Part shown: positions 21,013 through 40,061 of the stretch, in pieces
Numbering within the stretch: position 1 is the first letter of the stretch
Layout: each line of letters starts with the position of its first letter
NCBI GenBank assembly: GCA_041671645.1
Contig: JBAZBD010000001.1
Location: 21,561-85,560 of the forward strand
Direction: 5' to 3'
Source: Patescibacteria group bacterium
GTDB taxonomy: Bacteria; Patescibacteriota; UBA1384; XYA2-FULL-43-10; 1-14-0-10-43-13
Length of the DNA: 64,000 nt
Program-made: the position numbers and the translations under genes
Notes under the pieces: model-generated
The model's input: only the letters and a program-made list of their open reading frames with translations
The model's database searches: none
Told to the model about the DNA's origin: nothing

Positions 21013-21231
21013 AAGACTCCCACAGTTAGTTTTATATAAGGTTATTCCTGTGTAATTTAACACAAGGGGGTCCAAAGTTCAATAACTGACGCCCCGAGAA
21101 GGAAATGGCGCCCTTAACGGCGTGAATAAAAGCGTTTCCTATCGCCTGAGCCCCATAAGACAGTCAGACCCCGATAATCGACCTCAAAGCTCTGATAAGG
21201 CTGAATTGAGCTCAATTTACTCTCCATACCA

Positions 21232-21261: not shown

Positions 21262-21352
21262 AACTAGTTACGCTGGTAAATCTTACATGCCGGCTGACTG
21301 CAAATTGACAACGAGGCAACGTGCCTCAATATATTCTGAAAAGGAGGACGCG

Positions 21353-22498
21353 AACATGCGTTCAATCGTTCTGGCCACTCTGGCCCTTTTTGCCGCTCTG
21401 CTAATGAGTGGCTGTAATGGAAATTCTTCCATATCGACCCCAATCAAAAATAACCTCAGCATCACTGTTGAGCGTTACGACGGTGCTGCGTGGCAGACCG
21501 TCGAAGTTGGAGAGAGTGTTTTTGAGAGCGACGAGCTCTCATTTGACGTATTAGCCCCCGCAATCAAACGCGGTGGGGTGGATATTGTCTGGTCAGTTAA
21601 GAAGGCTGGTTTCGAAATCACCGGAAACGGTGGAAAATCGTGGAAGTTGATGGCCGGTGATTACATCATCTCGGCTCAACTTGCCATCTCCGGTAGCCCT
21701 GTATTGCTTCGAGAGTTGACCGTTAAAGCTGGCTCCAGACCAATCCCGCCAGCGCCACTTGCTTGGAATCCAGTCTTACGAGGCTACACCCCGTATAGTT
21801 CCGCAAACAGCGTCTCAACACAGGCAAGTAGCTACACGCTACAACGTAGCGGTGACAAATTCTTGGCCAAAGTCGGCCAAAAATTGACAGTTGAGATTGA
21901 TCGAACGGATCACCGCGGTGGACCTGGCGACGGTACAGTAGACCCCACCGCACCTCTATATAAAGAGGTAAAGGTGGTCGTCGTCAACAACATCGGCGCG
22001 GAAGTCCCCACAACCTATGAAGACTACTACTGGGGCTATAACGGCCTCCTCCCCGTCTTTACAGTAAAGGAGAGTGGCGACTTCACAGCAAAAGTTAGCA
22101 TTGTCCTTAGCGACAATACGCAAAAGGATTTTAGTCTCCAATTACGTGTCGAAGACGTGGTTGTAGACCAGCCGATGACCGTCGCCATCAAATGGCATTA
22201 CTATGACGGCACGCTTAAAACGCTTACCCTAACCAATAACACATTGTATGTGCTGCCTGGCAATCGCTACGATATTAAAGCGTCGAAACCAGGCTGGGAA
22301 GGTGCTCAGCAAGAAATCGTGATCTTTAATGAGATCACCCAGGTCTCCCCGCCGTTGATGGTAGGGAACGACTTTATTGAAGGACTTATGTCCGGAACAG
22401 GCGAAGGCACCGTTCGGGTGACCTTAAGCAAGGATGGACAATCAGTCCACACCGACTTCCACGTGGAAGTCATAGAGGGGCTAGGAATGGTCCGATAA
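21353..22498 (+). CDS. secreted lipoprotein, beta-rich, unknown function
   Basis: AAGGAGG RBS 8 nt upstream. Signal peptide with lipobox LLMSGC. No known catalytic motif. Confidence 0.6.
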   Translation, partial: NMRSIVLATLALFAALLMSGCNGNSSISTPIKNNLSITVERYDGAAWQTVEVGESVFESDELSFDVLAPAIKRGGVDIVWSVKKAGFEITGNGGKSWKLMAGDYIISAQLAISGSPVLLRELTVKAGSRPIPPAPLAWNPVLRGYTPYSSANSVSTQASSYTLQRSGDKFLAKVGQKLTVEIDRTDHRGGPGDGTVDPTAPLYKEVKVVVVNNIGAEVPTTYEDYYWGYNGLLPVFTVKESGDFTAKVSIVLSDNTQKDFSLQLRVEDVVVDQPMTVAIKWHYYDGTLKTLTLTNNTLYVLPGNRYDIKASKPGWEGAQQEIVIFNEITQVSPPLMVGNDFIEGLMSGTGEGTVRVTLSKDGQSVHTDFHVEVIEGLGMVR

Positions 22499-22620: not shown

Positions 22621-23820
22621 TTATTTTAGAGCACTTTTATAGACGTCGAGAGTTTTCTCTGCCGTGTCGGACCAATTGTATTTGGCCGCTTGTTTCAGGC
22701 CTTTGGTTGAGAGCTCTCCCCTGAGCTTCTCGCCGGTGGAGACTCGTGCCATCGCCTTGGCCATATCTTCGATATCGTATGGATCGAAATACAGTGGAGC
22801 ATCGCCTAGAATTTCTGGCATACAGGAAACGTTGGATGAGAGTACTGGCGTGCCGCAAGCCATAGCTTGGAGCGGAGGGAGGCCGAAACCTTCATAGAGC
22901 GAAGGAATGATATAAGCCATCGCGCCAGCGAAACCAATCACCTGCTCCTCGGACTTCTCTGGCAAGAAACCAGTAGTAATAATGGAATTTGGAATTTGGA
23001 ATTTGGAATTTAGGTATTCTCGGACTCTTTTAATTTCTTCCATTACCTCTGGCTCTGCAGGATCGGGTTTGCCCATTAGGACTAGTTGAACAAAATTACT
23101 AGATTCCCGGGTCATGGCTTCGCCTGCCCGAGAATGACAATCAACGACAAACTTCTCATAGGCCTGGATTAGGCGTACGAGATTTTTGTGTTTTTTCCAC
23201 ATTCCGGCATAGAGAAAATAATCGCCGGTGATGCCAAATTTCTCCTTAAAATCTTTGACCTTCGAGGTCTGACCTTTGACCGATTCGTTATATTTCAAAT
23301 CGAAACCGAGATGAGTGACCGCTATCTTCTCTGGTTTGACGCTGAATCTTTTGACAATGTCCTGTTTGGTTGTTTCTGAGACAGAAATTATCTTGGCTGA
23401 GTCTCGAGCCGCTGATTGCATTACCTTCTTGAAGGCGAATTGCTTGATCGGATTAGCTTGGAAGAATTCGGTGAATTGGGTCAAGTCATGGATCGTGACG
23501 ACATAATTGCCCCGATACATGACCGGGTGATTGAACTGGGTAAAGTGCACGAGATCATACTTTTTATGATTCAGAAAAGTTAGGAGTTTGGTCTGCTCCG
23601 CCATGGAATAATGGGGGACGTCCAGAATCTTGGTTTGAAAGTTAGATGATTTTCCGAATGTTGGGTAGGCCTTCAATTTCTCTAGGCCCTGCGGACGGAT
23701 TAATAGTGTATACTCATTTTCCTTATCCAATTCCAAGACTCGGCTCAAAATCTCAAGGGTGTAGATAGTAAGTGAAGAGCCTATACCAATAAATCTGCCG
23801 TCAATTAGAATTTTTTTCAT
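22621..23820 (-). CDS. glycosyltransferase family 4
   Basis: GT-B fold with EGFGLPPLQAMACGTPVL motif (EX7E region). Confidence 0.8.
   Translation of the reverse strand: MKKILIDGRFIGIGSSLTIYTLEILSRVLELDKENEYTLLIRPQGLEKLKAYPTFGKSSNFQTKILDVPHYSMAEQTKLLTFLNHKKYDLVHFTQFNHPVMYRGNYVVTIHDLTQFTEFFQANPIKQFAFKKVMQSAARDSAKIISVSETTKQDIVKRFSVKPEKIAVTHLGFDLKYNESVKGQTSKVKDFKEKFGITGDYFLYAGMWKKHKNLVRLIQAYEKFVVDCHSRAGEAMTRESSNFVQLVLMGKPDPAEPEVMEEIKRVREYLNSKFQIPNSIITTGFLPEKSEEQVIGFAGAMAYIIPSLYEGFGLPPLQAMACGTPVLSSNVSCMPEILGDAPLYFDPYDIEDMAKAMARVSTGEKLRGELSTKGLKQAAKYNWSDTAEKTLDVYKSALK
22984..23011. repeat. 4 x perfect heptanucleotide tandem repeat (GGAATTT) inside the GT4 coding sequence
   Basis: ggaatttggaatttggaatttggaattt. 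Encodes KFQIPNS on the - strand. The unit is not a multiple of three. Confidence 0.6.
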
Positions 23821-25048
23821 CTGTTTCCTTTTTTACATTGGCCAAAGCGACTCCGATCAGGATAAACAAAGAGTAGCTCAAAGCTGGATTATCTGCAAAA
23901 GTATGAAGAAATATGGCGGTGATCGACACGGCCAACAGTGAGAAGAAAAGTCCCAGCTCTTTGGCACGAATAAGGGCAGTAGAGACGAGGTAAGAGATAT
24001 AGAGCCAAAGAGCCAAGCCGATGGCACCAATCTCAAGCAAAAGTTGGATATACCAAGATTCGGAAATTATACCTCCGTATTTGATGGCAATTGGCCCAGC
24101 TGTGCCAAGTCCATTGCCAAAGATCAAAATCGCCGGCTCTGCTAGCCTGTGCGTCACTTCATCAATTGAACTCTGGAGAGCGAAATTGTGGCCGGCCTGT
24201 GATTGGCCATGAGTCATGAATTGCGAGACCGTGGCGTTCGGCCAGAACCAGAGAGCCACAGCCAACGCCACGACAGCGAGACCGATAATTGAAATTATTT
24301 TCTTGACCCTCAAATTTGACTTGATGAAGATGAAGACAAAGAGTGAAACTATCAGCCCTATCAGCGCCGCTCGAGAAAAGGAGAGGAAGACGCCTAGGAA
24401 TAATACGATCGCCAACGAGATCGATAATTTCTTGGCACTGCCCTTGAAAATATTGTTGATGCAGATGAAGAAAGCCGGCAAAAGGTATGAGCCGAGCTGG
24501 ATCGCGCCAAGCAAGAAGGAGGCGCTCCGCTGCAAATCCATGTCGAAGCTGACTAGGAATGAGCCATATCCGTTCTCGACCCCGGGGATGATTATTCGCC
24601 AATAGTCAGCAGGGAGAAACCTCTCCAGTATCGCCCAAATCGCCACGGCCAGAGCGGTGCCAAGATAAACCTTGGTCATTTTTTTGATGTCAATAAGATC
24701 GCCCAGATTGGATAGTCCAAAGAGTAAAACGAGTGGCATGAGGGTAAATCGGAATCCCTCAATCCCCTGGCCCCAGCTTGGTGAGAAGAAAAAGATAGAG
24801 AAAGCGCCAAGGATAAGAATCGCCAGAATCGGCAATTGCCTATACAAATTAGCTTTTGCCTTGGGGAGGATCGAAAAGCGGACAAGCGCGATAAGAGCAA
24901 TTATCAAAATGATTGGCTCATAGAAATGAAGTGCCCAGAAGGAGACCCCGGAATCAATATTAATTGAGTCAAAATAAAAAGAGAGTAACTGCTGGAAGGG
25001 CAAGAGGATGATTAGAAAAGCAAGAAAAATATTAAGAGCTTTTTTCAT
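23801..25048 (-). CDS. O-antigen ligase/polymerase-like (Wzy_C) membrane protein, paralog 1
   Basis: Polytopic; SFSRAALIGLIV and GNGLGT motifs typical of Wzy_C. Start set at MKKALNIF. Confidence 0.6.
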   Translation of the reverse strand: MKKALNIFLAFLIILLPFQQLLSFYFDSINIDSGVSFWALHFYEPIILIIALIALVRFSILPKAKANLYRQLPILAILILGAFSIFFFSPSWGQGIEGFRFTLMPLVLLFGLSNLGDLIDIKKMTKVYLGTALAVAIWAILERFLPADYWRIIIPGVENGYGSFLVSFDMDLQRSASFLLGAIQLGSYLLPAFFICINNIFKGSAKKLSISLAIVLFLGVFLSFSRAALIGLIVSLFVFIFIKSNLRVKKIISIIGLAVVALAVALWFWPNATVSQFMTHGQSQAGHNFALQSSIDEVTHRLAEPAILIFGNGLGTAGPIAIKYGGIISESWYIQLLLEIGAIGLALWLYISYLVSTALIRAKELGLFFSLLAVSITAIFLHTFADNPALSYSLFILIGVALANVKKETDEKNSN

Positions 25049-26264
25049 TGTTTTGGCTTCCCTTCCCAAGCAAAAATGCTGAGGCGAAAACGAGCCAGAA
25101 GATGACCGAGAGATCGTTCTTGAAATAGGTCGTGTCAAATAAGCCATGGATCAGGATCGCGGACATAGCGGCGGCCACAAAATATTTGGTATTGCCGACC
25201 GATGCCCTCCAGGTATTTACGAAGAAGCTGATGATGAGGCCGAAAAGTGCAATGATGCCAACTAATCCCAAATTGAGCCAGAAAGCGAGGAAGAGATTGT
25301 GCGGGTGAATTGCGTATGGGAGGCCAAACTGTGTGAAGCTGGGATTGTTGAGGGCCACGACCGCCACCTTGTCCTGGAAGTCCCCCATGCCAATGCCAAA
25401 CAAATAATCTGAATTGATCAGTTGAAAACTGTAGCGATAAATTTCGGTACGCACAGTCTGAGTTGTCAGCAAACTGTCCGCAATTTGTGTCAGGAAGAAA
25501 ATTGCTATTGCAGATATGACGCCAAGGGCCGTCCACTTCAGAAACTTTCCTCTAATGAAGCTAAACGAGACAACCACAAGGCCAGAGAACAAAGCAATCA
25601 GCCCTCCGCTGGATTTACTCAAGACAAGCGCAGTTATTGCGATGAGGATTGAAACTATTTGAACGAAAAGAAGAAAATTGAATTTTCTCCAATTGACAGA
25701 GACAGCGGCGAGAAGCAGGACAGGAACGATGAACATCGTCAGATAATTTGGCGATTCGAAAGGACCAAAGAATCTTTGCTCACTAATATATTGGGCGAAA
25801 GAAGAATCGGTGCTTTGATAAAGCATCGGCGCAATCAGCCCTAGTCTTTGCAAGATAGCCCAGAGAGAAATCAGGAAGAGTGGGACGAAGAGAAGACGCA
25901 ATGATTTGATGAAGCCTTCACGGTCCTGGCCGAAGAGATTGATGATAGAGAGATAAAACATTATAGGGATTACAATCCAGCCCTTGGCGATTCCGAGAGA
26001 GACAGTGCTTGTTCCGTTGGCGATTAAGCTCAAGACAGCGGCAAAAACTACCAGATAAGCCCAGGGAGAGCCCCAGTTCCAGCTCTTCTTCTGTGATAAT
26101 TTCAAAATCAAAACCAAGAAGAAGAAAATGAGAATCAAAAGTTCAAGCGGATTGGTCCTGATCGAGCCGATCAAGGTAAAGCGAAAAATATAGGCCGGCA
26201 AAAAAATTAGTACAAGAGAATAGGCAGCAAAGGAAAACGACCTCAAATTTAATTTATTTTTCAT
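25032..26264 (-). CDS. O-antigen ligase/polymerase-like (Wzy_C) membrane protein, paralog 2
   Basis: Polytopic; LSKSSGGLIALFSGL and GIGMGDF motif. Overlaps its neighbours by 11-17 bp. Confidence 0.55.
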   Translation of the reverse strand: MKNKLNLRSFSFAAYSLVLIFLPAYIFRFTLIGSIRTNPLELLILIFFFLVLILKLSQKKSWNWGSPWAYLVVFAAVLSLIANGTSTVSLGIAKGWIVIPIMFYLSIINLFGQDREGFIKSLRLLFVPLFLISLWAILQRLGLIAPMLYQSTDSSFAQYISEQRFFGPFESPNYLTMFIVPVLLLAAVSVNWRKFNFLLFVQIVSILIAITALVLSKSSGGLIALFSGLVVVSFSFIRGKFLKWTALGVISAIAIFFLTQIADSLLTTQTVRTEIYRYSFQLINSDYLFGIGMGDFQDKVAVVALNNPSFTQFGLPYAIHPHNLFLAFWLNLGLVGIIALFGLIISFFVNTWRASVGNTKYFVAAAMSAILIHGLFDTTYFKNDLSVIFWLVFASAFLLGKGSQNNEKSS

Positions 26265-27576
26265 TTTGTTTGAATTGATATGAATTTAGCCAAGCCAAGA
26301 AGACCCAAAACGAAATTACATACAAAGTAGAGAAGAAATTATATTGGATCAGGACCGCCAGCATGCCGAGAGAGAGCGCAATCACCGTAGATTTTTGAGC
26401 GAGCGGAAGTGATCGGGTCGCCTTCCGAATTTCGATCGCCAAGAAGACCAAGAAAAGAAGGAAGAGAGTGAGTCCGACAGCACCGTTCTCAGCTAACAAT
26501 TCCAAATATTCGTTGTTAACTATCAGATACTGGCCGTTTGCAAGCTGTGCAGCCGGAGTGTAAAGATAGCCGAAGCTGGCTGGACCGGCGCCAAAAATTG
26601 GCTTTTTCTTAAATGAATCTATGGCCGAGCCATAAAATCCAAGCCGTTCGAAAGTCGAGTAGTCCGACCTCTGGCTCGGGACAACGTTGGTCGTCTGCTG
26701 TAAAAAACTTGAAGTTAGCTGAACTTTTTGGCCGTCCTTTGGTGGGTTCTTGATGTCTCTAACCATTTGATTGAGCCAAATCAGACCAAAACAGATGCCG
26801 AGAGATAAGATGAATGCGACAATGCCGCCGCCGATCTTGGCAAAACGATTGGCGATAGTCTTATTACAGATTATATAAATCAGGAAGATCAGTAGAGCCA
26901 CGCCCATGCCCAAGAAAGCGCCTCGTGACATTGTGAGCAGAAAGTTCACCAAGAATAGTACGATCAGCCAAAAAGTTGAATTGAAAAACTTAGCTCCAAA
27001 GATATATTTTCTCAGAGATATAAGGATCGGGATGATTAGAAAGTTTGCAAAATATAACGGCTCCAAAGCGACAGATTGAATTCGGGCAAAGCCAAAAACT
27101 TCCTTGGTATAGCGTTGTAGCAAGCCAGTAAATGTTGTCGGGGCGTCAAAAGTGTCTCCCAGGAATTGTACAAGACCGAAAATAGAAATGAAAATAGCAG
27201 CGGCAATTAGGAATTTTTCAATTTTCTCAAAGCTAATCTTGGCGATAACGCGAGAAAAGGAGAAATAAATCAAAAACATAAACAGCCAGAGCAAGGTGAA
27301 AATTAGTCCGCGTTTGGTCGGTGCAAGCATGAAAGAGATCAAGTCTGAGATGAATAATCCGACCAGGATAACCTCAGACCCTCTGAATTTGACAAATTTA
27401 TCCTTGCGAAAGAGGAGGCCAAAAAGCCAGCAGGAAAGGAAAGCGATAGCCAAGAGATAGCTGATCTTGACCGTGAACCCTCCAACGTCGAAAGTCGGGA
27501 TTCGTTCGAAAGGCAGGAAAAAAAAGATGGCTAGGACGAGGCCTGATAGGATGTTTGGTAGAGTAACTTTCTTCAT
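26254..27576 (-). CDS. O-antigen ligase/polymerase-like (Wzy_C) membrane protein, paralog 3
   Basis: Polytopic; LTMSRGAFLGMGVALL and FGAGPASFGY motifs. Confidence 0.6.
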   Translation of the reverse strand: MKKVTLPNILSGLVLAIFFFLPFERIPTFDVGGFTVKISYLLAIAFLSCWLFGLLFRKDKFVKFRGSEVILVGLFISDLISFMLAPTKRGLIFTLLWLFMFLIYFSFSRVIAKISFEKIEKFLIAAAIFISIFGLVQFLGDTFDAPTTFTGLLQRYTKEVFGFARIQSVALEPLYFANFLIIPILISLRKYIFGAKFFNSTFWLIVLFLVNFLLTMSRGAFLGMGVALLIFLIYIICNKTIANRFAKIGGGIVAFILSLGICFGLIWLNQMVRDIKNPPKDGQKVQLTSSFLQQTTNVVPSQRSDYSTFERLGFYGSAIDSFKKKPIFGAGPASFGYLYTPAAQLANGQYLIVNNEYLELLAENGAVGLTLFLLFLVFLAIEIRKATRSLPLAQKSTVIALSLGMLAVLIQYNFFSTLYVISFWVFLAWLNSYQFKQNEK

Positions 27577-27689
27577 AGATTTATTATACCTTATTATTTA
27601 TATTTTTTTTGGTGGGGTAATTGCCTCATAAAAAGCAAATGCCCCCAGGCAAGGGCTTAAAAGTTGTATGAAGCTATGATAAAATTAGT

Positions 27690-28871
27690 TTGATGATATT
27701 GTCAAATTGGGACAGAAAATTTGTGTCTGCTATTCTCTGCGTATCCGTGTTTTCTCTGACGCTCGCGGCAATGCAAAAAGTTCATGCTGAAATCAACAGC
27801 ACTGATTTTGTAAATAATAAATCCTACAACAATCTGATCTCCAACAGGGACTTTATCGATATCGGATCGATGACCCAGGACGAAATTCAAGCCTTCCTCA
27901 ATACTAAGGCCTCTTATCTAAAAGAATTTTCTGAGGGTGGCAAGAGCGCTGCACAAATTATTTATGAGGCGGCTCGAGGCAAGAAAAATACTGCCGCCAG
28001 AGATGGCGAGGATTACAGCACTTATCTAGGTGAAACATATAAGAATGTCACGGTCAACGAAAGCACCGGCACCGTGAGCCCCAAAGTACTGCTTGTGATG
28101 CTGCAAAAGGAACAAAGCTTGATCACTCGAACTGAACGCAACGATGACGCCCTAACGATCGCCATGGGCTACGGCTGCCCCGATTCGAGCAGTTGCTCCA
28201 GTCATTATTTCGGCTTTACTTTCCAAGTCGAATGGGCGGCTTGGCAATTGCGTTACAATTATGGACGCTCACAAGGTAAAGGAACCGATTTTCAGGTCGG
28301 CCAGACGATGACCGGGGTAGACGGACAATACGATGTCACATTTATGAACGAAGCCACAGCTTCGCTCTATCGCTATACTCCGCATGTTTTCGATAGCGCC
28401 TATAATTTTATGAACTTGTATGATAGTTGGTTCACTACCCACGCCGATAGTGAAAGTGACGACACGGCCAACTTCACCCTCAAAACTTATACTAACGCCC
28501 AAAAAGTTTCTGGCGGGAAAAGAAGCGACACTATCGCTTATCTGAACAACAGCCCCCTAAGCGACGGTGGGCTCGGATCTAGAAGTTGGAATATTAATTT
28601 TACCGATCTGGCTTACGGGACCAATAATTACACCTTAGAATACAAGGACGCGGGCGGTACTCTGGTCGATACAAAATCGATAGTGATCGAGATTCACAAA
28701 CCTGGCGATATCGACGGCAATAACGCCGTCGACGTCCAGGACCTTTCGATTTTCGCCGCCTACTGGTCGCAGATCAATCCAGAGGAGCCACTGGCCAATT
28801 TGACCGGTGAAGTCGGCCATGCCATTAACGTTCAGGATCTTTCAATCTTGGCGGGGTATTGGGGAAAGTAG
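27690..28871 (+). CDS. secreted protein with C-terminal dockerin-type repeat pair
   Basis: Signal peptide. C-terminal GDIDGNNAVDVQDLSIFAAYW ... INVQDLSILAGYW, a duplicated dockerin type I Ca-binding repeat. N-terminal roughly 300-aa domain is unassigned. Confidence 0.6.
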   Translation: MMILSNWDRKFVSAILCVSVFSLTLAAMQKVHAEINSTDFVNNKSYNNLISNRDFIDIGSMTQDEIQAFLNTKASYLKEFSEGGKSAAQIIYEAARGKKNTAARDGEDYSTYLGETYKNVTVNESTGTVSPKVLLVMLQKEQSLITRTERNDDALTIAMGYGCPDSSSCSSHYFGFTFQVEWAAWQLRYNYGRSQGKGTDFQVGQTMTGVDGQYDVTFMNEATASLYRYTPHVFDSAYNFMNLYDSWFTTHADSESDDTANFTLKTYTNAQKVSGGKRSDTIAYLNNSPLSDGGLGSRSWNINFTDLAYGTNNYTLEYKDAGGTLVDTKSIVIEIHKPGDIDGNNAVDVQDLSIFAAYWSQINPEEPLANLTGEVGHAINVQDLSILAGYWGK

Positions 28872-28978
28872 TTACAATTTTTAATTACTAATTTTTAATT
28901 TCTAATCAAATCTTAATCATTAAAAATTTTAAATTGATTAAAACTTAGGAAATACGAATTAAGAATTAAAAGGATAAT

Positions 28979-30232
28979 ATGAAGAAAAATTTGTTAGTAT
29001 GCGTATCGGCGTTCTTGTCAGTTTTATTTTTGCCCACGCTTGCCATGGCGGCTGGTATTTCTGTCTCGTCTGGCAGTCTGAAATACCCAGGAGATGAAGC
29101 TACTGGCACCGTTACGGCTAGCGGCACTACTTTTAATGCCTTTTCGGGGACGATCGGGTCCGGCGGCGTGATCAAAATAGTGAGCTGTTCTCCTGGAGAT
29201 GCCCTCTGGGTAAACAAGCCAAACGGAGCTGGCAGTTTTGCCGGAGCTTTGACTGAGCCAGTTTCCTCATTTCGGATCGCTTCCTGCAAATTGAGAGCTA
29301 GTACGACAGGCAGTGGAACATTCTCTGTCTCTGGAGTATCTCTGGCCGACAAAGGACCTATCGTCGGGACTGATGGCGACAGCACATCCTTCAGCATCGT
29401 TCGCCGTCCGACGCCCCCAGGTGCTATCTCCATCTCTTCGGCGACTCACGCTGACCAAAATACGTCCTACGAAGCGAACACCGTCATCTTGTCCTGGGAT
29501 CGGCCAAGCAATATTACCGGTTTCTCCTATCTTCTCGATCAGACCGCTGACACTATTCCTGGCGCGAAGGTGACCTCCAATGAGATGACCGTCACTTATG
29601 CGGATCAAGCAATCGGGACATATTATTTCCATATCCGAGGACAGAACAATGATGGCTTTGGCGACACTTCGCATTTCAAAATTATGATCAAGGAGCCAGA
29701 TCCAAAGATTAAGGAAGAAATTGCCAAACCCTCCGATATTTCAATCTCAAAAACAAGCGACTTCAAAAATATTATAGCTGACGGCACCGCATCAGGTATC
29801 AAGATCTCAGGCCTGACACTGCCAGAGTATATGGCTAACATCAAATTGGAACCATCGCCAAAGATACCTGAGGGCAAATTGATGTCGGCCAAGGCTGACG
29901 CCAATGGCAGATTTGAATTCCTGATCGACTTTCCGATACCAGCAGGGTCGTATATTTTGACAGTTCAGGGTCAAAACAACAAAACTTTAACCCCAGTCTC
30001 CGATCCGATTCGCTTCGAGCTCTCTCAAAAAGAGGGTGGATCAATCCAAATTGTTACGGCAAGCGATGAAAATGTCCCCATTATTCCACCCAAGAAATGG
30101 CATGAAAAAGTAAATTGGTTGGCGGTTTCTATCGCAATAGCTTCGCTTTGGTTGATTTCCGCAGCCATAATTGTTACTTTGGCAGTAAGGAAAAAGATAA
30201 ATTTGAAGAAATTCACTAAATTGATTGGTTAG
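28979..30232 (+). CDS. cell-surface protein: signal peptide, beta-rich ectodomains, C-terminal TM anchor
   Basis: AAAGGATAAT-ATG RBS. Signal peptide ending TLAMAAG. Ig/FN3-like repetitive beta-rich sequence. C-terminal hydrophobic helix followed by RKKINLKKF. Confidence 0.6.
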   Translation: MKKNLLVCVSAFLSVLFLPTLAMAAGISVSSGSLKYPGDEATGTVTASGTTFNAFSGTIGSGGVIKIVSCSPGDALWVNKPNGAGSFAGALTEPVSSFRIASCKLRASTTGSGTFSVSGVSLADKGPIVGTDGDSTSFSIVRRPTPPGAISISSATHADQNTSYEANTVILSWDRPSNITGFSYLLDQTADTIPGAKVTSNEMTVTYADQAIGTYYFHIRGQNNDGFGDTSHFKIMIKEPDPKIKEEIAKPSDISISKTSDFKNIIADGTASGIKISGLTLPEYMANIKLEPSPKIPEGKLMSAKADANGRFEFLIDFPIPAGSYILTVQGQNNKTLTPVSDPIRFELSQKEGGSIQIVTASDENVPIIPPKKWHEKVNWLAVSIAIASLWLISAAIIVTLAVRKKINLKKFTKLIG

Positions 30233-31660
30233 ATGAAAGAAAAACGAGCCATTTTTATCAGTACCGCTTCGCAAATAATTGTGCGATTTTTCACCTTGGC
30301 CTTTACTCTTATCGCGGTCAAACTGATCACAAACTATCTGGGAACCAAAGGAACCGGTGATTATAACACTATTAATACCTTCCTGGGCTTCTTCATTGTC
30401 ATTGCTGACCTCGGTCTATTCTCTGTAGCCGTAAGGGAAATCGCCAAAAATCCAGAAAAAGAGAGAAAAATTCTTTCGAATGTCCTGGCGATTAGAATTA
30501 TTACCGCGATCTTGGCTGTTATCTTTGCGGTGATAATAATGTTTTCTACAAAGTTCAGCCCAGAAGTAAAATTTGGCACTTTGGTCGGAAGCGGTTTTAT
30601 TTTCTTCAATCTGCTCTCGAGCGTTTACGATGTCGTTTTGCAGTACAAATTGCAGATGCAGTTCTCTGCGCTAGCTGAGTTTATAACTCGAATTATTACT
30701 CTGATCGCCCTGTATATCGTAATCAAAAGTCATGGGAATTTTTACTTGATCATGGCGACACTTACCTTTTCGGCGATACTAATATATTTCTTCAAAAAGA
30801 TTTTTTCTGATCGTCTGGCTAAATTCAGACCGGAATTCGACCAGAAAATATCAAAATGGATCTTCGATCTCGCTTGGCCTCTGGGAATCGTCTTCGTCAT
30901 GAATAATCTGTTTTTCAAGATCGACACTCTGATGGTAGCCTGGATCAAAGGATCGGTTGCTGTCGGGATTTATTCAACAGCTTACAAAGTGATCGAGGTG
31001 ATAGTTTTCATGGGCGGTTATTTTGCTAGTAGTTTGAAGCCTGTCATCTCCCGAGAGATAGATCGCGACAAAGAAGGCGTAGCCCGCATAATTCAAAAAT
31101 CGGTAAATATTATGCTGATTCTTTCCCTGCCGGTCACTATCATCTCAGTCGCCTTTTCCAGAGAGATAATCCTCTTTATTAGTAGCCCAGATTTTGCAAT
31201 TGGCGCGAAGGCCCTAATTGTCTTGTCCTTCACTCTACCATTTATTTATCTTGACACCTTGCTTGGTGAAGTGCTCCTGGCCAGCAACGCTCGGAAGTTA
31301 CTTGTCAAAATAGCTGTTTTTATCTTGGCTTTCAACTTTTTGACGAATCTTTACTTCATTCCGAAATACTCATACATGGGCGCCGCCTTTACGACCCTAA
31401 TGTCAGAAATAGTCTTGTTTGGCGTAAATTATTACTATACTAAGAAAATATTGCCCTATTCATTCGACAAAAAAATGATCGCAAAGATATTCGCGATTTC
31501 CTTGATCTCTTATTTTTTCGCCGTAGCGGTGAAACAGGCCACTTCTTGGCACTTCCTGATTATTATGGCTCTGACACTAGTTCTCTACATTCTTTTGCTT
31601 AATGCATGGAAGATACTCACTCTCGCAAGCTTGAAAGAACTGCGTAAAAGCGACCAATAG
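30233..31660 (+). CDS. Wzx-type oligosaccharide flippase (MOP superfamily)
   Basis: 475 aa, 12-14 TMS, polysaccharide-biosynthesis-protein N-terminus (ASQIIVRFFTLAFTLIAVKLITNYLG). Confidence 0.75.
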   Translation: MKEKRAIFISTASQIIVRFFTLAFTLIAVKLITNYLGTKGTGDYNTINTFLGFFIVIADLGLFSVAVREIAKNPEKERKILSNVLAIRIITAILAVIFAVIIMFSTKFSPEVKFGTLVGSGFIFFNLLSSVYDVVLQYKLQMQFSALAEFITRIITLIALYIVIKSHGNFYLIMATLTFSAILIYFFKKIFSDRLAKFRPEFDQKISKWIFDLAWPLGIVFVMNNLFFKIDTLMVAWIKGSVAVGIYSTAYKVIEVIVFMGGYFASSLKPVISREIDRDKEGVARIIQKSVNIMLILSLPVTIISVAFSREIILFISSPDFAIGAKALIVLSFTLPFIYLDTLLGEVLLASNARKLLVKIAVFILAFNFLTNLYFIPKYSYMGAAFTTLMSEIVLFGVNYYYTKKILPYSFDKKMIAKIFAISLISYFFAVAVKQATSWHFLIIMALTLVLYILLLNAWKILTLASLKELRKSDQ

Positions 31661-31662: not shown

Positions 31663-32535
31663 CTATTTAGCTTTGATTAAATCAAAGTCCTTTTTGGCTT
31701 GAGCAAAGGCCCAAAAAGGAGTTTTGAGCGCTTTTGCTTTTCCCTTGCCATAGAAGAACATGCAGGCTAGTATCGGCCTTAGTTTGCGCCAGAAGAAACA
31801 CAGAAGATAGATATGTGAAAAGTTCTTCAGGAAGAAATAGTACTCGTTGTGGAAAAAGTCAAAGTACCAATCAATCCGTGATTTTTGGCGGCCACCACCA
31901 CTTTTGTGGGCCAGATGGATAATTTCGGCCTCTGGATCAAAAATTATTTTGTAGCCAGCGGCCACGACTCTCAAGACAAAATCGCTCTCTTCTCTCATGG
32001 CGTTGCCAATATAATTCTCGTCATAATAGCCAGCTTTGGCGATTATCTCTCGGTAAATAGAGAAGTTCCCTCCGGCGACCGTGTTCACTTCTTCTCGATC
32101 ACGGCTGGTCCAGTTGACGATAATATTGCCAGTCTTGGTGATATGGTTGGCCTTGCCGGAAGTGAAAACCCCCTTTTCATGAGGTAGGACGACTCGTCCA
32201 GTCACTGCAGAAATGCTCTTGTCCTCATAATTCTTGAGGTGCTTGGCTAGAAATCCTTCGACCGGGATGATGTCGTCATCGAGGAATAATACTAATTCCC
32301 CTGTCGCCTTCCGAGCAGCGAAATTCCTGGCGGCTGGCGCGTTTGGCACATCCAAATGAAAATATTTGATAATCGGAATTTTGGCCACAAAATCGAGGAA
32401 AGGTTTGTCGACATCTTCAGACTGATCGATAATCAAAATTTCCTCAATCAAAGATTTTTCTCGAAGCAAAAGATCGATTGTATCTTTGAGCACACCGTAT
32501 CGATTGAGAGTTGGGATGATAATTGAAAATTTCAT
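31663..32535 (-). CDS. glycosyltransferase family 2
   Basis: FSIIIPTLNR ... DDD GT-A motifs. Confidence 0.75.
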   Translation of the reverse strand: MKFSIIIPTLNRYGVLKDTIDLLLREKSLIEEILIIDQSEDVDKPFLDFVAKIPIIKYFHLDVPNAPAARNFAARKATGELVLFLDDDIIPVEGFLAKHLKNYEDKSISAVTGRVVLPHEKGVFTSGKANHITKTGNIIVNWTSRDREEVNTVAGGNFSIYREIIAKAGYYDENYIGNAMREESDFVLRVVAAGYKIIFDPEAEIIHLAHKSGGGRQKSRIDWYFDFFHNEYYFFLKNFSHIYLLCFFWRKLRPILACMFFYGKGKAKALKTPFWAFAQAKKDFDLIKAK

Positions 32536-32543
32536 ATTTAGTC

Positions 32544-33545
32544 TTAATTAATTCCTGAAACTTCGTCGAGCATCCAACTTGATTGTCGCCTTGAGGCCCA
32601 GCCAGAATAGCGACGTTTGCATTTGATAATGAGTGAAGCCAACGATGGGGACAGAGCCAGGATTGATCTCATCAATTCTCGGCTTCTGCTTGAGATGTAT
32701 TTTTCTGATTCCTGATAGTTTGACTTGGCCTTCTCGTAATCCTTCGCTTCTAGGTAATAATTGCCGAGTCGAATCAGGTAAGTCCCGATTTGGCTCTGGA
32801 CGAAAGTTTTATCAACAGGATCGAGCTCCCATGTACCATCTATTTTTTTGTAGCAATAGACCAGATCGATCAGCATTTTGTCTACTCTGTGAGAGAGGCT
32901 GGTACGATGGAATCTCCAACGAAAGAGCGGCTCCGAGATAAAGGTAAGTTGTCCCTCTCGAGCTAGACGAAGCCAAAGCTCATAATCATCAGCGAGCTTC
33001 ATCTTTTCGTCGAAACCGCCGAGTTTCTTCAAAACTGACGCTCTAACCACCGCGCCAGTCGTCGTCAAGATAAAATTCTGCTTGATTAAAGCCTTCAAAA
33101 TACTCTTTTGGCTTGGCACAGACTCAATCTCGGGCCATCGGGCGGCAAGATCAATCTTTTTGACATCATCGAAAATGAAACCATTGGCGAAATTGGCAAC
33201 TGCGTCAGAGTTTTTCTCGAGAGAATCGACTTGTTTGGCCAGCTTGGTCGAAAGCCAAAGATCGTCATGGTCAGAGAAGGCAATATACTTGCCACGAGAA
33301 TTTTTGATTCCGGTATTTTTGGTCCCAGCCGGCGCACCAGCGTTCTTATCGTGTTCTATGAGACGCAGTTTGTCGCCATAACTCTTGATTATCTCAACTG
33401 AATTGTCGGTCGAGCAATCGTCAACTAGAATCAATTCAAAATCTTTGAACGTTTGGCCAAGGACTGAGTCTATTGTTTGTCGCAGATTTTTGGCGCCGTT
33501 GTAAACCGGAATGATGATCGAAACCAGCGGACTTTTATCGCCCAT
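32544..33545 (-). CDS. glycosyltransferase family 2 with C-terminal TPR-like tail
   Basis: VSIIIPVYNGAKNL...LILVDDCSTDNS, DHDD motif. Confidence 0.8.
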   Translation of the reverse strand: MGDKSPLVSIIIPVYNGAKNLRQTIDSVLGQTFKDFELILVDDCSTDNSVEIIKSYGDKLRLIEHDKNAGAPAGTKNTGIKNSRGKYIAFSDHDDLWLSTKLAKQVDSLEKNSDAVANFANGFIFDDVKKIDLAARWPEIESVPSQKSILKALIKQNFILTTTGAVVRASVLKKLGGFDEKMKLADDYELWLRLAREGQLTFISEPLFRWRFHRTSLSHRVDKMLIDLVYCYKKIDGTWELDPVDKTFVQSQIGTYLIRLGNYYLEAKDYEKAKSNYQESEKYISSRSRELMRSILALSPSLASLIIKCKRRYSGWASRRQSSWMLDEVSGIN

Positions 33546-33586
33546 AGTATTCCTGAAAATTTAATAGTTTGATATATTAAAATTAC

Positions 33587-34684
33587 ATGATAATCGGCGT
33601 TGATACAAGAGAATTGGGCGAGAGGAAGACTGGCAAGGGCTGGTATGTTTACCATGTCCTGAAAAGGATGCTGGAAAGAGATCACGAAAATACCTATCTT
33701 TTGTATTCTAACAAAGAAATCGATTTTCCTCACTTCAAAAATGCCAAACTGGTCAAAGTCGAGAGCGGAGGGATTGGTTGGCATTTCAAGGTAAACAGTC
33801 GATTGGGAAAGGATGGGGTCGATCTATATTGGGCTCCGACTAGCCCAATCGTACCAGCAATCGCCAAGATCCCGACCGTTCATACCATCCATGATCTTTC
33901 AAACTTGATCTTCCCCCAAACACACACCTGGAAAGGAATCTTGGTCGACAAAATTTTCACTTATTGGGCAGTCAAGAGGACGAAAAAAGTCATAACTATT
34001 TCAGAGGCGACCCAAAAAGATATCTTGAGTTTCTATCCTTTCGCAAAGGGAAAAATTGAGATTACGCCGCTCGGCTTCGACCAAGCTTTCAAACCCATGA
34101 CTGATAGCGAAATCGCACCAATTCTGGCGGAAGACAAACTCAAACCTGGCTATATTCTCTTCGTCGGGACACTCGAGCCCAGGAAAAATATTGAGACGAT
34201 ACTAGGCGCATTTGCCAAGTTAGACCCCAAAACGCAAGAAGCTCATCCGCTCATAATTTGCGGCAAGAAGGGTTGGCTTTATGAGAATATATTTGCCAAA
34301 GTCGATCAGCTGAATCTCAAAGACAAGGTCAAATTCCTGGAGCACAAGGGGCTCAGAGAGCTACCAGCGCTTTATAATGGGGCTTCGGTCTTCGTCTTCC
34401 CGTCTCTATATGAAGGGTTTGGTTTGCCACCGCTCGAAGCAATGGCCTGCGGCAAGGCAGTCATCGTAAGCAATGTTAGCTCTCTGCCAGAGGTAGTCGG
34501 AGACGCTGGCATTTTGATAGAGCCAAAAGACGCCGATAATCTGGCACAAAATATTACAAAAATACTAAGCGACAACAACTATCGCCAAGATCTAGAGCAA
34601 AGAGGATTGAGAAGAGCGAAAGAGTTCTCCTGGGAAAAAACTGCCGATCAGACCAGAGACATACTGTCGAATATATTGAAATAA
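33587..34684 (+). CDS. glycosyltransferase family 4
   Basis: EGFGLPPLEAMACGKAVIVSNVSSLPEV motif. Confidence 0.8.
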   Translation: MIIGVDTRELGERKTGKGWYVYHVLKRMLERDHENTYLLYSNKEIDFPHFKNAKLVKVESGGIGWHFKVNSRLGKDGVDLYWAPTSPIVPAIAKIPTVHTIHDLSNLIFPQTHTWKGILVDKIFTYWAVKRTKKVITISEATQKDILSFYPFAKGKIEITPLGFDQAFKPMTDSEIAPILAEDKLKPGYILFVGTLEPRKNIETILGAFAKLDPKTQEAHPLIICGKKGWLYENIFAKVDQLNLKDKVKFLEHKGLRELPALYNGASVFVFPSLYEGFGLPPLEAMACGKAVIVSNVSSLPEVVGDAGILIEPKDADNLAQNITKILSDNNYRQDLEQRGLRRAKEFSWEKTADQTRDILSNILK

Positions 34685-36628: not shown

Positions 36629-38806
<2,178 letters not shown>

Positions 38807-38807
<1 letters not shown>

Positions 38808-39970: not shown

Positions 39971-40061
39971 ACTAAGCTCCAATCCGCCAAAGGGCGGAGA
40001 ATTAAGAATATTGAATATAGAATCAAGGTTCGAACCCATAATTCCAAATTCGAGATTCCAA

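What the first reader, a model, noticed from the sequence alone, without database searches (positions are those of the whole stretch)
23801..30232. Three tandem, translationally coupled Wzy_C (O-antigen-ligase/polymerase-like) paralogs next to dockerin-bearing and membrane-anchored surface proteins
Three consecutive 410-448-aa polytopic proteins each carry Wzy_C-like motifs (SRGA/SSGG, GxGxG). They overlap by 11-17 bp, which points to co-translation.

Immediately divergent from them are two genes. One encodes a secreted protein ending in a duplicated dockerin type I repeat. The other encodes a signal-peptide, Ig-like, TM-anchored surface protein. That is followed by a Wzx flippase and several glycosyltransferases.

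The arrangement suggests either three distinct glycan ligases/polymerases with different acceptors (possibly protein O-oligosaccharyltransferases, PglL/PilO-like) or a hetero-oligomeric assembly. The dockerin protein implies a cohesin-bearing partner elsewhere, that is, a surface scaffold system.
Basis: partly seen in the sequence, partly recalled or inferred. Interest (0 to 1): 0.5.

Follow-up and report, generated by a model that had tools for sequence, protein, structure and literature searches.

The report
Three Wzy_C glycan enzymes, CPR bacterium
A tiny-genome Patescibacteria (CPR) bacterium has three very distantly related WaaL/Wzy-type membrane enzymes in a row inside a large surface-sugar gene cluster, beside a probable secreted cell-wall hydrolase with a dockerin-like tail; this is an ordinary kind of pathway in an understudied group, and two of the three genes form a pair conserved across that group.

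Summary
Three consecutive minus-strand genes encode 10-11-TM Wzy_C-superfamily proteins: W3 26254-27576, W2 25032-26264, W1 23801-25048. They overlap by 11 and 17 bp, and a GT4 gene follows with a 20-bp overlap.

They are not recent duplicates. Identity is 15-18%, and homology is clear only profile-to-profile (99.4-99.5%).

The window comes from a Patescibacteria MAG. In 80 species-level relatives, the W3 ortholog is followed by a W2 ortholog in 59 of 71 informative loci, usually after Wzx and GT4. W1 is restricted to a small clade.

Only W2 keeps the WaaL/PglL catalytic His (H322) and the loop Arg (R272). W3 has invariant Asn-Asn at that site, and W1 has Glu-Ser.

My best reading is a Wzx/Wzy-type envelope glycan pathway with separate enzymes. 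W2 would be a ligase to a non-LPS acceptor, and W3 and W1 polymerase-like. This split of roles is inferred, not shown. An obligate hetero-oligomer is unlikely because the genes occur in varying combinations.

The parts
26254..27576 (-). W3: 440-aa, 11-TM Wzy_C-superfamily protein and first gene of the operon. R218 and R311 are invariant in the family. Asn354-Asn355 are invariant where WaaL has His-Asn. Proposed role is polymerase-like (inferred).
   Evidence: Pfam Wzy_C 64.5 bits. The family profile hits the WaaL structure sequence 7TPG at E 1.4e-13. 375 homologs were found, with names pointing to Patescibacteria. Orthologs are present in 80 species loci.
25032..26264 (-). W2: 410-aa, 11-TM Wzy_C-superfamily protein. 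It keeps the WaaL/PglL loop Arg (R272, 30/30) and the His motif H320-P-H322-N323-x9-G333-xx-G336. The first Arg of the triad is Ser219 in this copy (family: R18/L7/K4/S1). Proposed role is terminal ligase (inferred).
   Evidence: Pfam Wzy_C 55.4 bits. AF2 model pLDDT 88.4, pTM 0.90. Best PDB fold match is WaaL 7tpg_B, E 2.3e-7, TM 0.63. Profile vs 7TPG sequence E 2.5e-4, with HPHN aligned to the HAHN of WaaL. Residue counts. An ortholog follows the W3 ortholog in 59/71 loci.
23801..25048 (-). W1: 415-aa, ~10-TM divergent Wzy_C-superfamily protein, restricted to a small clade. R226 is kept. His287 replaces the loop Arg and Glu330-Ser331 replace His-Asn; all are invariant in its family. An invariant H382-x3-D386-x-P is also present.
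   Evidence: Pfam Wzy_C is subthreshold at 22.0 bits. hhalign to the W3 family 99.5% and to the W2 family 99.4%. Only 47 homologs were found, most carrying PF04932. The start at 25048 matches the database protein and has a GGAAGG-type ribosome-binding site. The trio recurs in L002, L004, L005, L006, L084 and L086.
22621..23820 (-). GT4a: GT4-family glycosyltransferase and last gene of the operon. It overlaps W1 by 20 bp. Across relatives it is conserved downstream of W2/W1 and is often followed by the H+-pyrophosphatase gene.
   Evidence: Pfam Glycos_transf_1 75.6 bits. NCBIfam gives only subthreshold hits (TuaC, glycolipid-anchor GTs, MshA). Synteny is shown.
27577..27705 (-). Divergent promoter and leader region for the W3-W2-W1-GT4 operon. 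It contains TTGACA-18 nt-TATCAT, then a hairpin plus T-run (27656-27641), then TATAAT just before the W3 ATG.
   Evidence: Consensus scan and sequence. Mean column identity is 93% in an alignment with L001 (the same sequence) and L002; L002 differs at about 9 positions and lacks an 11-nt stretch before the A-run. Function was not tested.
27690..28871 (+). DOC: 393-aa secreted protein. It has an N-terminal hydrophobic segment read as a signal peptide, a lysozyme-like (GH73-like) alpha domain (~45-250) with conserved E141, an Ig/Fn3-like beta-sandwich (~260-335), and a dockerin-like C-terminus whose second repeat is degenerate.
28979..30232 (+). IG: 417-aa surface protein with an N-terminal hydrophobic segment read as a signal peptide, an N-terminal beta-rich domain, an fn3/Ig-like domain and a C-terminal TM anchor. 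It always sits next to DOC in relatives.
   Evidence: Weak Ig_J and fn3 hits. TM segments at 5-23 and 385-403. Orthologs lie next to DOC in L002, L004, L005, L006, L082, L086 and L088. No member hits a cohesin model.
30233..31660 (+). Wzx-type (MOP/MATE-like) flippase for a lipid-linked oligosaccharide. It starts at the base immediately after the IG stop codon.
   Evidence: Pfam Polysacc_synt 79.3 bits, plus MurJ and MatE hits. A Wzx ortholog lies upstream of W3 on the same strand in 47/59 informative relatives.
31663..34684 (.). Three cytoplasmic glycosyltransferases of the same locus: GT2 31663-32535 (-), GT2 32544-33545 (-) and GT4 33587-34684 (+). Orthologs of this GT4 ('GT4b') sit immediately upstream of W3 in 42/80 relatives.
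   Evidence: Pfam results and neighbour statistics.

Best explanation
The region is the membrane-step core of a Wzx/Wzy-type cell-surface glycan pathway in a Patescibacteria (CPR) bacterium. In such pathways a polyprenyl-diphosphate-linked glycan is built in the cytoplasm and assembled en bloc outside the membrane.

Proposed sequence of events:
- Cytoplasmic GT4 and GT2 enzymes build an oligosaccharide on a polyprenyl phosphate carrier.
- The Wzx flippase (30233-31660) moves it to the outer face of the membrane.
- The three WaaL/Wzy-fold (GT-C_B) enzymes act there one after another as separate enzymes.

W3 and W2 are orthologs of a gene pair that is adjacent in most sampled Patescibacteria. 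W2 keeps the WaaL/PglL loop Arg and catalytic His, so it is most likely the terminal ligase. It would move the glycan from the lipid carrier to a final acceptor. That acceptor cannot be lipid A-core in this LPS-less lineage, so it is probably a membrane glycolipid (as with TacL) or a surface protein (as with WsaB/PglL). W3 has both Arg residues but an invariant Asn-Asn instead of His-Asn, so it is most likely the repeat-unit polymerase. W1 is a clade-specific third member with His287 and Glu330 at the triad positions. It is most likely a second polymerase or ligase with a different substrate or linkage.

The gene overlaps reflect operon compaction, not an obligate complex.

The divergent neighbours are a secreted lysozyme-like cell-wall hydrolase with a dockerin-like tail (DOC) and a membrane-anchored Ig-like protein (IG). 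They are evolutionarily linked to the W3/W2 pair, but how they connect mechanistically is unknown.

Shown here: family membership, fold, residue patterns and synteny. Inferred: which enzyme polymerises, which ligates, and the acceptor.
For: Source organism. All three proteins exist in the protein collection at 100% identity, from one 867,751-bp contig. NCBI names W3 and W2 'O-antigen ligase family protein [Patescibacteria group bacterium]' and W1 'hypothetical protein'.

Family and fold:
- Pfam Wzy_C is above threshold for W3 and W2.
- All three families are homologous over their full length.
- The W2 model (pLDDT 88.4) best matches WaaL 7TPG (E 2.3e-7, TM 0.63), then FtsW.
- The W3 and W2 profiles hit the 7TPG sequence at E 1.4e-13 and 2.5e-4.

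Active-site pattern. The E. coli WaaL R215/R288/H338 triad is also conserved in PglL (PMC3643930), and the His is the proposed catalytic residue (PMC12800693). At those positions:
- W2 has [S219; family mostly R]/R272/H322.
- W3 has R218/R311/N354.
- W1 has R226/H287/E330.
Apart from W2 position 219 (variable) and H322 (29/30), each of these residues is invariant within its family.

Pathway context. A Wzx flippase, GT2 and GT4 genes are adjacent. Nonulosonic-acid and dTDP-rhamnose genes and a second Wzx lie in the same window.

Conservation. Among 80 species loci, 59/71 have W2 downstream of W3, and 45 of those are directly adjacent, often with 4-bp overlaps. Wzx is upstream in 47/59, and GT4 is immediately upstream in 42/80. 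L089 shows a minimal Wzx-GT4-W3-W2 cluster.

Precedents in bacteria without an outer membrane:
- TacL, a Wzy_C protein, is the LTA ligase acting on a glycolipid (PMC5727136).
- WsaB and WsfB are the predicted Wzy_C S-layer O-OTases (PMC2943079).
- TuaE and SscD are predicted Wzy_C polymerases in PGT-GT4-polymerase-flippase loci (PMC11841062).
- In the cultivated Saccharibacterium Southlakia, Wzy-like, Wzx and 'O-antigen ligase family' genes are fitness-relevant in Tn-seq (PMC10633639).
Against: No biochemical evidence exists for any of the three families.

The polymerase/ligase split rests on one motif:
- The window W2 lacks the first Arg of the triad (Ser219). That position varies in its family (R18/L7/K4/S1).
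- W3, not W2, is the closer sequence relative of the solved WaaL (53.6 vs 23.3 bits).
- Wzy polymerases have no agreed sequence signature, so 'polymerase-like' is assigned by exclusion.

Gaps in the pathway picture:
- No chain-length regulator (Wzz/PCP) and no initiating phosphoglycosyltransferase were found among the window ORFs scanned.
- 12 of 71 relatives have W3 without any detectable W2 nearby.
- The absence of LPS in this organism is assumed from general knowledge of Patescibacteria. It was not checked, because only 64 kb of the genome was available.
Confidence: 0.6

Rival explanations
1. One or more of the three enzymes, most plausibly W2, is a protein O-oligosaccharyltransferase (as PglL, PilO, WsaB are). 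It would glycosylate the neighbouring secreted and anchored proteins DOC and IG. The locus would then be a surface-glycoprotein system rather than a polysaccharide or lipoglycan system.
For: DOC and IG stay next to W3/W2 in at least 8 genomes, including L088 where DOC->IG->W3->W2 are co-directional. PglL genes are often adjacent to their target genes (PMC3643930). Wzy_C O-OTases are predicted in Gram-positive S-layer glycosylation loci (PMC2943079). W2 keeps the Arg/His shared by WaaL and PglL. W1 and W2 have an invariant H-x3-D that resembles PglL H400-x3-E404 (PMC3643930).
Against: No PglL_A (PF15864) or other O-OTase-specific model is hit, even at E<=10. About 50 species have the W3-W2 pair with Wzx/GT4 but no DOC or IG in the ~10-kb flanks examined. 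No pilin gene was found in the window. The H-x3-D resemblance is by eye only.
Confidence: 0.2
2. The three proteins form an obligate hetero-oligomeric membrane complex, with assembly aided by translational coupling.
For: The genes overlap by 11, 17 and 20 bp within one operon. W3 and W2 orthologs overlap by 4 bp in many species.
Against: Overlaps of 4-35 bp are usual for same-strand genes across this window. Gene content varies between genomes: W2+W1 without W3 (L082), W3 plus a W1-like gene without W2 (L024, L032, L070), W3 alone in 12/71, and other genes (PMT_2-type GT-C, DUF4012) inserted between them in several loci. The W2 ATG has no Shine-Dalgarno sequence upstream.
Confidence: 0.1
3. 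The three are functionally redundant or alternative polymerases serving different repeat units, for example one per flippase, with no ligase among them. Attachment to the final acceptor would be carried out by an unrelated enzyme encoded elsewhere, such as an LCP-family protein.
For: The window holds two Wzx-type flippases (30233-31660 and 58111-59403) and sugar pathways for at least two glycan types. W1 has a weak hit to the repeat-unit polymerase model TIGR04370 (E 0.0011, below cutoff). In Gram-positive bacteria LCP enzymes usually do the wall attachment (general knowledge; discussed in PMC5727136).
Against: The invariant His-x-His-Asn of the W2 family, aligned to the HAHN of WaaL, is hard to explain for a polymerase. 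The W3-W2 pairing is conserved even in minimal four-gene clusters with a single flippase (L089).
Confidence: 0.1

Closest known systems
WaaL O-antigen ligase (Cupriavidus metallidurans WaaL, PDB 7TPG/7TPJ; E. coli WaaL)
   Same: Same superfamily and fold. Pfam Wzy_C applies, the W2 model matches 7tpg_B with TM 0.63, and the W3 and W2 profiles hit its sequence. The large outer loop carries the conserved Arg, and in W2 also the H-x-H-N...G..G motif.
   Different: The host is a Patescibacterium, a group not known to make lipid A (general knowledge), so the acceptor must differ. W3 has Asn and W1 has Glu in place of the catalytic His. The window W2 has Ser in place of the first Arg. Identity to WaaL is about 15%.
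TacL (RafX), the lipoteichoic-acid ligase of Streptococcus pneumoniae
   Same: It is a Wzy_C-domain polytopic protein in a bacterium without an outer membrane, proposed to transfer a polymer from its lipid carrier to a membrane glycolipid (PMC5727136). This is the most plausible functional analogue for W2. A conserved GT4 (GT4a), with subthreshold hits to glycolipid-anchor glycosyltransferases, follows the operon.
   Different: The polymer and the acceptor in Patescibacteria are unknown.
Teichuronic-acid (tua) and S. aureus ssc loci: PGT - GT4 (TuaC/SscC) - Wzy_C polymerase (TuaE/SscD) - MATE-like flippase (TuaB/SscE)
   Same: The gene set and logic match the conserved Patescibacteria core of Wzx-GT4-W3(-W2) (PMC11841062). 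GT4a has a weak TuaC hit.
   Different: Those loci have one Wzy_C protein, whereas this one has two (widely) or three (this clade). No initiating phosphoglycosyltransferase is present in the window.
PglL / PilO / WsaB protein O-oligosaccharyltransferases
   Same: They share the Wzy_C core with the same Arg/Arg/His triad (PMC3643930), and their genes are often adjacent to target proteins. Here DOC and IG are syntenic with the enzymes.
   Different: The PglL_A motif model is not hit. There is no C-terminal extra domain or TPR. The pair is mostly found without DOC/IG.
Non-cellulosomal dockerin-bearing hydrolases and GH73 N-acetylglucosaminidases (LytB, Acp, phage lysins)
   Different: No GH73 (Glucosaminidase) or any other Pfam model matches. 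The family has 3,425 hits at E<=0.001 in the representative library and no Pfam model matches the window protein, while the relatives scanned matched only accessory-domain models. The second dockerin repeat lacks Ca-binding residues in this copy. No cohesin partner was identified.

Membership tests
Wzy_C superfamily (Pfam PF04932; WaaL/Wzy/PglL-type GT-C_B enzymes) | HMM match at or above the Pfam gathering score (31.7 bits) | tested here: met
   W3 scores 64.5 bits and W2 55.4 bits. W1 alone scores only 22.0 bits, which is not met. However, most of its 47 orthologs carry PF04932, and hhalign to the W3 and W2 families gives 99.4-99.5%.
Wzy_C superfamily (Pfam PF04932; WaaL/Wzy/PglL-type GT-C_B enzymes) | Polytopic WaaL-like fold with a large extracytoplasmic loop before the last TM helices | tested here: met
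   W2 AF2 model has pLDDT 88.4. Its top PDB match is WaaL 7tpg_B (E 2.3e-7, TM 0.63) and the second is FtsW. W1 and W3 were not modelled; their fold is inferred from full-length profile homology and 10-11 predicted TM segments.
WaaL/PglL-type ligases (transfer from Und-PP-glycan to a non-carrier acceptor) | Arg/Arg/His triad (E. coli WaaL R215, R288, H338; N. meningitidis PglL R224, R298, H349; PMC3643930) | tested here: inconclusive
   W2 has S219 (family R18/L7/K4/S1), R272 (30/30) and H322 (29/30), so 2 of 3 in this copy. W3 has R218, R311 and N354 (27/27), so the His is absent. W1 has R226, H287 and E330 (32/32), so only 1 of 3.
WaaL sensu stricto (O-antigen ligase of LPS) | Acceptor is lipid A-core, so the organism must make LPS | not testable with these tools
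   Only 64 kb of an 867-kb contig is available. No lipid A genes occur among the window ORFs scanned. Patescibacteria are generally regarded as lacking LPS (general knowledge).
PglL-type protein O-oligosaccharyltransferase | PglL_A motif (Pfam PF15864), conserved in PglL but not in WaaL | tested here: not met
   There is no PF15864 hit for the whole proteins or for the excised C-terminal segments at E<=10. HMMER's filters may drop very weak matches.
Wzy repeat-unit polymerase | Match to a polymerase-specific model (e.g. NCBIfam TIGR04370, Pfam O-ag_pol_Wzy/EpsG), or demonstrated polymerisation | tested here: inconclusive
   W1 hits TIGR04370 at 18 bits, below the cutoff of 40. W2 and W3 have no such hit. 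No agreed sequence signature exists for Wzy, and activity cannot be tested here.
Type I dockerin (Pfam PF00404) | HMM match at or above the gathering score (22.9 bits), with two Ca-binding repeats | tested here: inconclusive
   The whole protein gives no hit. The excised C-terminus scores 16.5 bits over profile positions 1-32 of 57. 23 of 42 family members hit Dockerin_1, best E 1.1e-9. Repeat 1 has D340/D342/N344/D348/D351. Repeat 2 has T372/E374/G376/N380/D383 and is degenerate.
Cohesin-dockerin system | A cohesin-domain partner | tested here: not met
   No Cohesin Pfam hit was found for IG, for X403 or for any IG-family member. A profile of the IG N-domain finds no cohesin among the best 60 PDB sequence matches listed. 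hhalign to a CipA cohesin sequence recalled from memory gives 2.6%. The rest of the genome was not searchable.
Lysozyme-like / GH73 peptidoglycan hydrolase (for DOC) | Lysozyme-like fold with a conserved catalytic Glu | tested here: met
   [not shown]
Wzx / MOP-superfamily flippase (30233-31660) | Polysacc_synt HMM above the gathering score | tested here: met
   PF01943 scores 79.3 bits against a cutoff of 28.2, with additional MurJ and MatE hits.

The most novel reading that the evidence does not exclude
The W3-W2 pair, with W1 added in this clade, would be the assembly machinery for a Patescibacteria-wide envelope glycoconjugate that nobody has characterised. The His-bearing W2 would ligate a flipped glycan onto a non-LPS acceptor: either a glycolipid made by the conserved GT4a, or the neighbouring surface proteins. 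The syntenic DOC-IG pair would be a membrane-tethered murein hydrolase that works with this glycan at the epibiont-host interface, with the dockerin-like tail docking on the anchored Ig-like protein.
Probability: 0.15. Interest if true: 0.6.

Novelty: new member of a known kind. Interest (0 to 1): 0.3.

Why it matters
Patescibacteria are abundant, mostly uncultured epibionts, and their cell surface is thought to mediate attachment to hosts. Almost nothing is known about the chemistry of their envelope glycans.

This analysis shows that a pair of WaaL/Wzy-type enzymes is conserved and adjacent across many Patescibacteria lineages. One member has the ligase-type His and the other does not. The pair sits next to a flippase and GT4 genes. 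That gives a concrete, testable core for a lineage-wide surface glycan pathway.

It also flags a large lysozyme-like hydrolase family (3,425 hits at E<=0.001 in the representative library) for which no sequence model in the libraries searched matches the window protein.

The pathway logic itself is conventional, so the value lies in better annotation and target selection rather than in a new principle.

Tried and rejected
- **Direct phmmer of W1, W2 and W3 against PDB sequences.** Nothing relevant was found. Family profiles were needed to reach WaaL.
- **Recent tandem duplication.** Rejected, because pairwise BLASTP is non-significant for two of the three pairs.
- **PglL_A, Wzy_C_2, O-antigen_lig and other Wzy models at E<=10.** No hits.
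- **NCBIfam.** Only subthreshold IctB (W2) and TIGR04370 (W1) hits. The IctB 'bicarbonate transporter' reading was set aside as an annotation legacy of the same superfamily.
- **Cohesin search.** Pfam on IG, on X403 and on 7 IG orthologs; PDB profile searches with the whole IG family and with its N-domain, which returned only spurious antibody matches; and hhalign against a CipA cohesin sequence recalled from memory (2.6%). All negative.
- **PHROGs search for DOC, IG, X403 and two polytopic orphans.** No hits.
- **PMT_2-type GT-C profile from relatives against window ORFs.** No hit.
- **Rfam and tRNA scans.** They found only a SAM riboswitch, unrelated to the finding.
- **Literature searches for Patescibacteria/Saccharibacteria with O-antigen ligase or Wzy.** No description of the conserved pair was found.

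Full report
**1. What is there**

The minus strand between 22.6 and 27.6 kb carries four tightly packed genes:
- W3, 26254-27576, 440 aa.
- W2, 25032-26264, 410 aa.
- W1, 23801-25048, 415 aa.
- A GT4 glycosyltransferase ('GT4a'), 22621-23820.

For W1 the longest ORF reaches 25147 (448 aa). The ATG at 25048 has a GGAAGG-type ribosome-binding site and matches the protein as deposited in public databases. The overlaps are 11, 17 and 20 bp. A hydropathy scan gives 10-11 TM segments for each of W1-W3.

Pfam Wzy_C is above threshold for W3 (64.5 bits) and W2 (55.4 bits). It is below threshold for W1 (22.0 vs 31.7 bits).

Divergently transcribed on the plus strand are:
- DOC, 27690-28871, with a signal peptide and no Pfam hit.
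- IG, 28979-30232, with a signal peptide, weak fn3/Ig hits and a C-terminal TM anchor.
- A Wzx-type flippase, 30233-31660 (Polysacc_synt, 79.3 bits).
- GT2, GT2 and GT4 genes after that.

The rest of the window from about 40 to 64 kb holds more glycosyltransferases, a nonulosonic-acid pathway (NeuB, cytidylyltransferase, PseB/PseC-like), a second Wzx, rmlABCD and GtrA. The finding therefore sits in a surface-glycan region of roughly 40 kb. Only the three named ORFs in the window match the W-family HMMs.

**2. Source**

All three proteins exist in public collections at 100% identity on one 867,751-bp contig. NCBI names W3 and W2 'O-antigen ligase family protein [Patescibacteria group bacterium]' and W1 'hypothetical protein'. 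The organism is a CPR/Patescibacteria MAG. By synteny and best hits it is close to genomes labelled Berkelbacteria.

**3. How the three are related**

They are not recent duplicates. BLASTP is significant only for W1-W3 (E 6e-5, 29% over 164 aa).

I aligned 27-32 orthologs for each protein (A1 = W3, A2 = W2, A3 = W1). Profile-profile comparison then shows full-length homology among all three families (probability 99.4-99.5%, E ~1e-21, 15-18% identity).

The W2 family model (AF2, pLDDT 88.4, pTM 0.90) matches the WaaL O-antigen ligase structure 7tpg_B best (Foldseek E 2.3e-7, TM 0.63). The SEDS protein FtsW comes second. The W3 and W2 family profiles also reach the 7TPG sequence directly, at E 1.4e-13 and 2.5e-4. 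Membership in the WaaL/Wzy/PglL superfamily is therefore secure for all three.

**4. Active-site pattern**

E. coli WaaL R215, R288 and H338 are functionally important and are also conserved in PglL (PMC3643930). The His is the proposed catalytic residue, and the equivalent H324A mutation inactivates PglS (PMC12800693).

I placed the residues using the HMMER alignments to C. metallidurans WaaL. There R191, R265 and H311-A-H313-N314 are the equivalent positions, counted from the alignments. The column counts are:

| Family | First Arg position | Loop Arg position | His-Asn position |
|---|---|---|---|
| W2 | S219 here (family R18/L7/K4/S1) | R272 (30/30) | H320 (30/30), H322 (29/30), N323 (30/30) |
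| W3 | R218 (27/27) | R311 (27/27) | N354-N355 (27/27) |
| W1 | R226 (32/32) | H287 (32/32) | E330-S331 (32/32) |

In W2 the motif reads H-N-x9-G-xx-G. W1 and W2 also share an invariant H-x3-D (H382..D386 in W1, H373..D377 in W2). By eye this recalls PglL H400-x3-E404, but the PglL_A Pfam model is not hit.

So each family has its own fixed chemistry at the site, and only W2 looks like a WaaL/PglL-type ligase.

**5. Conservation elsewhere**

A scan of one genome per GTDB species found 216 relatives of W3, and I fetched the best 80 loci. Where the labels are informative they are Patescibacteria-type MAGs: Berkelbacteria, Kerfeldbacteria, Saccharimonadia, Microgenomates, Parcubacteria and others. 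Some of the automated 'Gammaproteobacteria' and 'Saccharibacteria' labels look unreliable.

I classified every ORF with the three family HMMs. Of the 71 loci with at least 1.3 kb downstream of W3:
- 45 have a W2 ortholog directly adjacent, many with 4-bp overlaps.
- 14 have W2 further downstream.
- 12 have none.

Wzx lies upstream on the same strand in 47 of 59 informative loci. A GT4 gene lies immediately upstream in 42 of 80. L089 shows a minimal Wzx-GT4-W3-W2 cluster.

PMT_2-type GT-C genes, and occasionally a DUF4012 gene, are interleaved in several loci.

W1 is much rarer. It has 47 homologs, against 375 and 501 for W3 and W2 (searches capped at 8,000 candidates). W3, W2 and W1 orthologs occur together in the window and in L002, L004, L005, L006, L084 and L086. 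They are contiguous in the window, L002, L004 and L084. A PMT_2 gene separates W3 from W2 in L005 and L006. L086 has W3-DUF4012-W2-PMT_2-W1. L082 has W2-W1 without W3. L024, L032 and L070 have W3 plus a W1-like gene without W2.

This variability, together with the fact that 4-35-bp overlaps are routine between same-strand genes throughout the window, argues against an obligate heterotrimer. The overlaps are best read as operon compaction.

**6. The neighbours**

*DOC.* It has no Pfam, NCBIfam or PHROG hit, yet 3,425 library representatives match it at E<=0.001. Its AF2 model (pLDDT 89.1) shows an alpha domain (~45-250), a beta-sandwich (~260-335) and two C-terminal helices.

The C-terminus scores only 16.5 bits on Dockerin_1, and only over the first repeat. 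However, 23 of 42 relatives hit Dockerin_1, best E 1.1e-9. The first repeat keeps the Ca-binding pattern, while the second is degenerate in this copy.

*IG.* It is a signal-peptide, Ig/fn3-like, C-terminally anchored protein.

*Linkage.* DOC and IG are adjacent to each other and to W3/W2 in the window and in L002, L004, L005, L006, L082, L086 and L088. In L088 (Berkelbacteria CP066697) the order is DOC->IG->W3->W2 on one strand, and its DOC ortholog has two intact dockerin repeats. The linkage thus survives rearrangement, which suggests a functional tie. Most W3-W2 pairs elsewhere lack DOC and IG, however.

*Cohesin.* No cohesin was detected in IG or elsewhere in the window.

**7. Interpretation**

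The best-supported reading is a Wzx/Wzy-type envelope glycan pathway. W2 would be the terminal ligase, W3 the polymerase and W1 a clade-specific extra polymerase or ligase, all acting as separate enzymes.

Patescibacteria are not known to make LPS (general knowledge, not checked here), so the acceptor for W2 is probably a glycolipid or a protein.

Precedents exist in bacteria without an outer membrane:
- TacL, a Wzy_C LTA ligase acting on a glycolipid (PMC5727136).
- WsaB and WsfB, predicted Wzy_C S-layer O-OTases (PMC2943079).
- TuaE and SscD, predicted Wzy_C polymerases in PGT-GT4-polymerase-flippase loci (PMC11841062).

In the cultivated Saccharibacterium Southlakia, a Wzy-like gene, a Wzx and an 'O-antigen ligase family' gene show fitness defects, and a dockerin-domain protein is essential in Tn-seq (PMC10633639).

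Caveats:
- The role split rests on one motif.
- W3 is closer in sequence to WaaL than W2 is.
- The window W2 lacks the first Arg.
- No PGT or chain-length regulator was found in the window.

**8. Verdict**

Known-kind machinery is involved, and NCBI already labels two of the three genes 'O-antigen ligase family'.

Three points are new here, as far as the searchable literature shows:
- The W3-W2 pair is conserved across Patescibacteria.
- The three families carry distinct residue signatures at the WaaL active-site positions.
- DOC has a lysozyme-like fold.

I rate it a new member of a known kind, with an interest of about 0.3.

Noticed in passing
[not shown]
   Followed up: partly
window 27577-27705 (minus strand), upstream of W3: A near-consensus promoter (TTGACA-18 nt-TATCAT) is followed by a hairpin plus T-run (27656-27641), then a second TATAAT just before the W3 start codon. 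Mean column identity is 93% in an alignment with L001 (the same sequence) and L002, whose proteins are about 86% identical. This could be a leader or attenuator. Rfam has no match.
   Followed up: partly
window 35104-36597 (-) and 42356-44410 (+): Two polytopic membrane proteins (497 aa with ~9 TM; 684 aa with ~12 TM) lie inside the glycan region. Neither has a Pfam or PHROG hit, nor a match to the PMT_2-type GT-C profile built from relatives. They may be further uncharacterised glycan-processing membrane enzymes.
   Followed up: partly
L005, L006, L016, L045, L046, L061, L086 (between W3 and W2 orthologs); L008, L037, L086 (DUF4012): In several relatives, PMT_2-type (ArnT/PMT-like GT-C) genes are inserted between or just after the W3 and W2 orthologs. 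In a few, a DUF4012 gene is inserted. This suggests extra outer-face glycosylation steps in the same pathway.
   Followed up: partly
window 40097-40194 (-): A SAM riboswitch (Rfam RF00162, 49.9 bits) lies upstream of a metK - pfkB-family kinase - S-adenosylhomocysteine hydrolase operon (38807-40039, 37908-38807, 36629-37939). The operon is embedded in the middle of the glycan gene region.
   Followed up: no
window 44418-63848: This is a second glycan sub-cluster. It contains NeuB, a CMP-sugar cytidylyltransferase, PseB/PseC-like enzymes, a weak polysialyltransferase-like hit (48745-49878), thiolase and SDR genes, a second Wzx (58111-59403), rmlA-rmlC-NUDIX-rmlB-rmlD and GtrA. It implies a nonulosonic-acid- and rhamnose-containing surface glycan.
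   Followed up: no
window 18898-21075 (-), 16126-18003 (-), 13430-15979 (-); L082, L084, L086: The block of H+-pyrophosphatase, VanW-domain protein and P-type ATPase downstream of the W operon is syntenic with the same block in relatives. In 13 of 44 informative species loci, the H+-PPase gene lies within 10 kb of W3.
   Followed up: partly
window 21287-22498 (+): A 403-aa lipoprotein-like, beta-rich protein has no detectable family. It lies between the GT4a gene and the H+-PPase gene, and unannotated ORFs occupy the same position in relatives.
   Followed up: no
L089 5224-7221 and 15927-18167; window 16126-18003: Other cell-wall-active genes (SpoIID, Amidase_2 with Ig-like domains, VanW) recur near W3-W2 clusters in different genomes. 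This hints at a loose association between this glycan locus and peptidoglycan remodelling genes.
   Followed up: no
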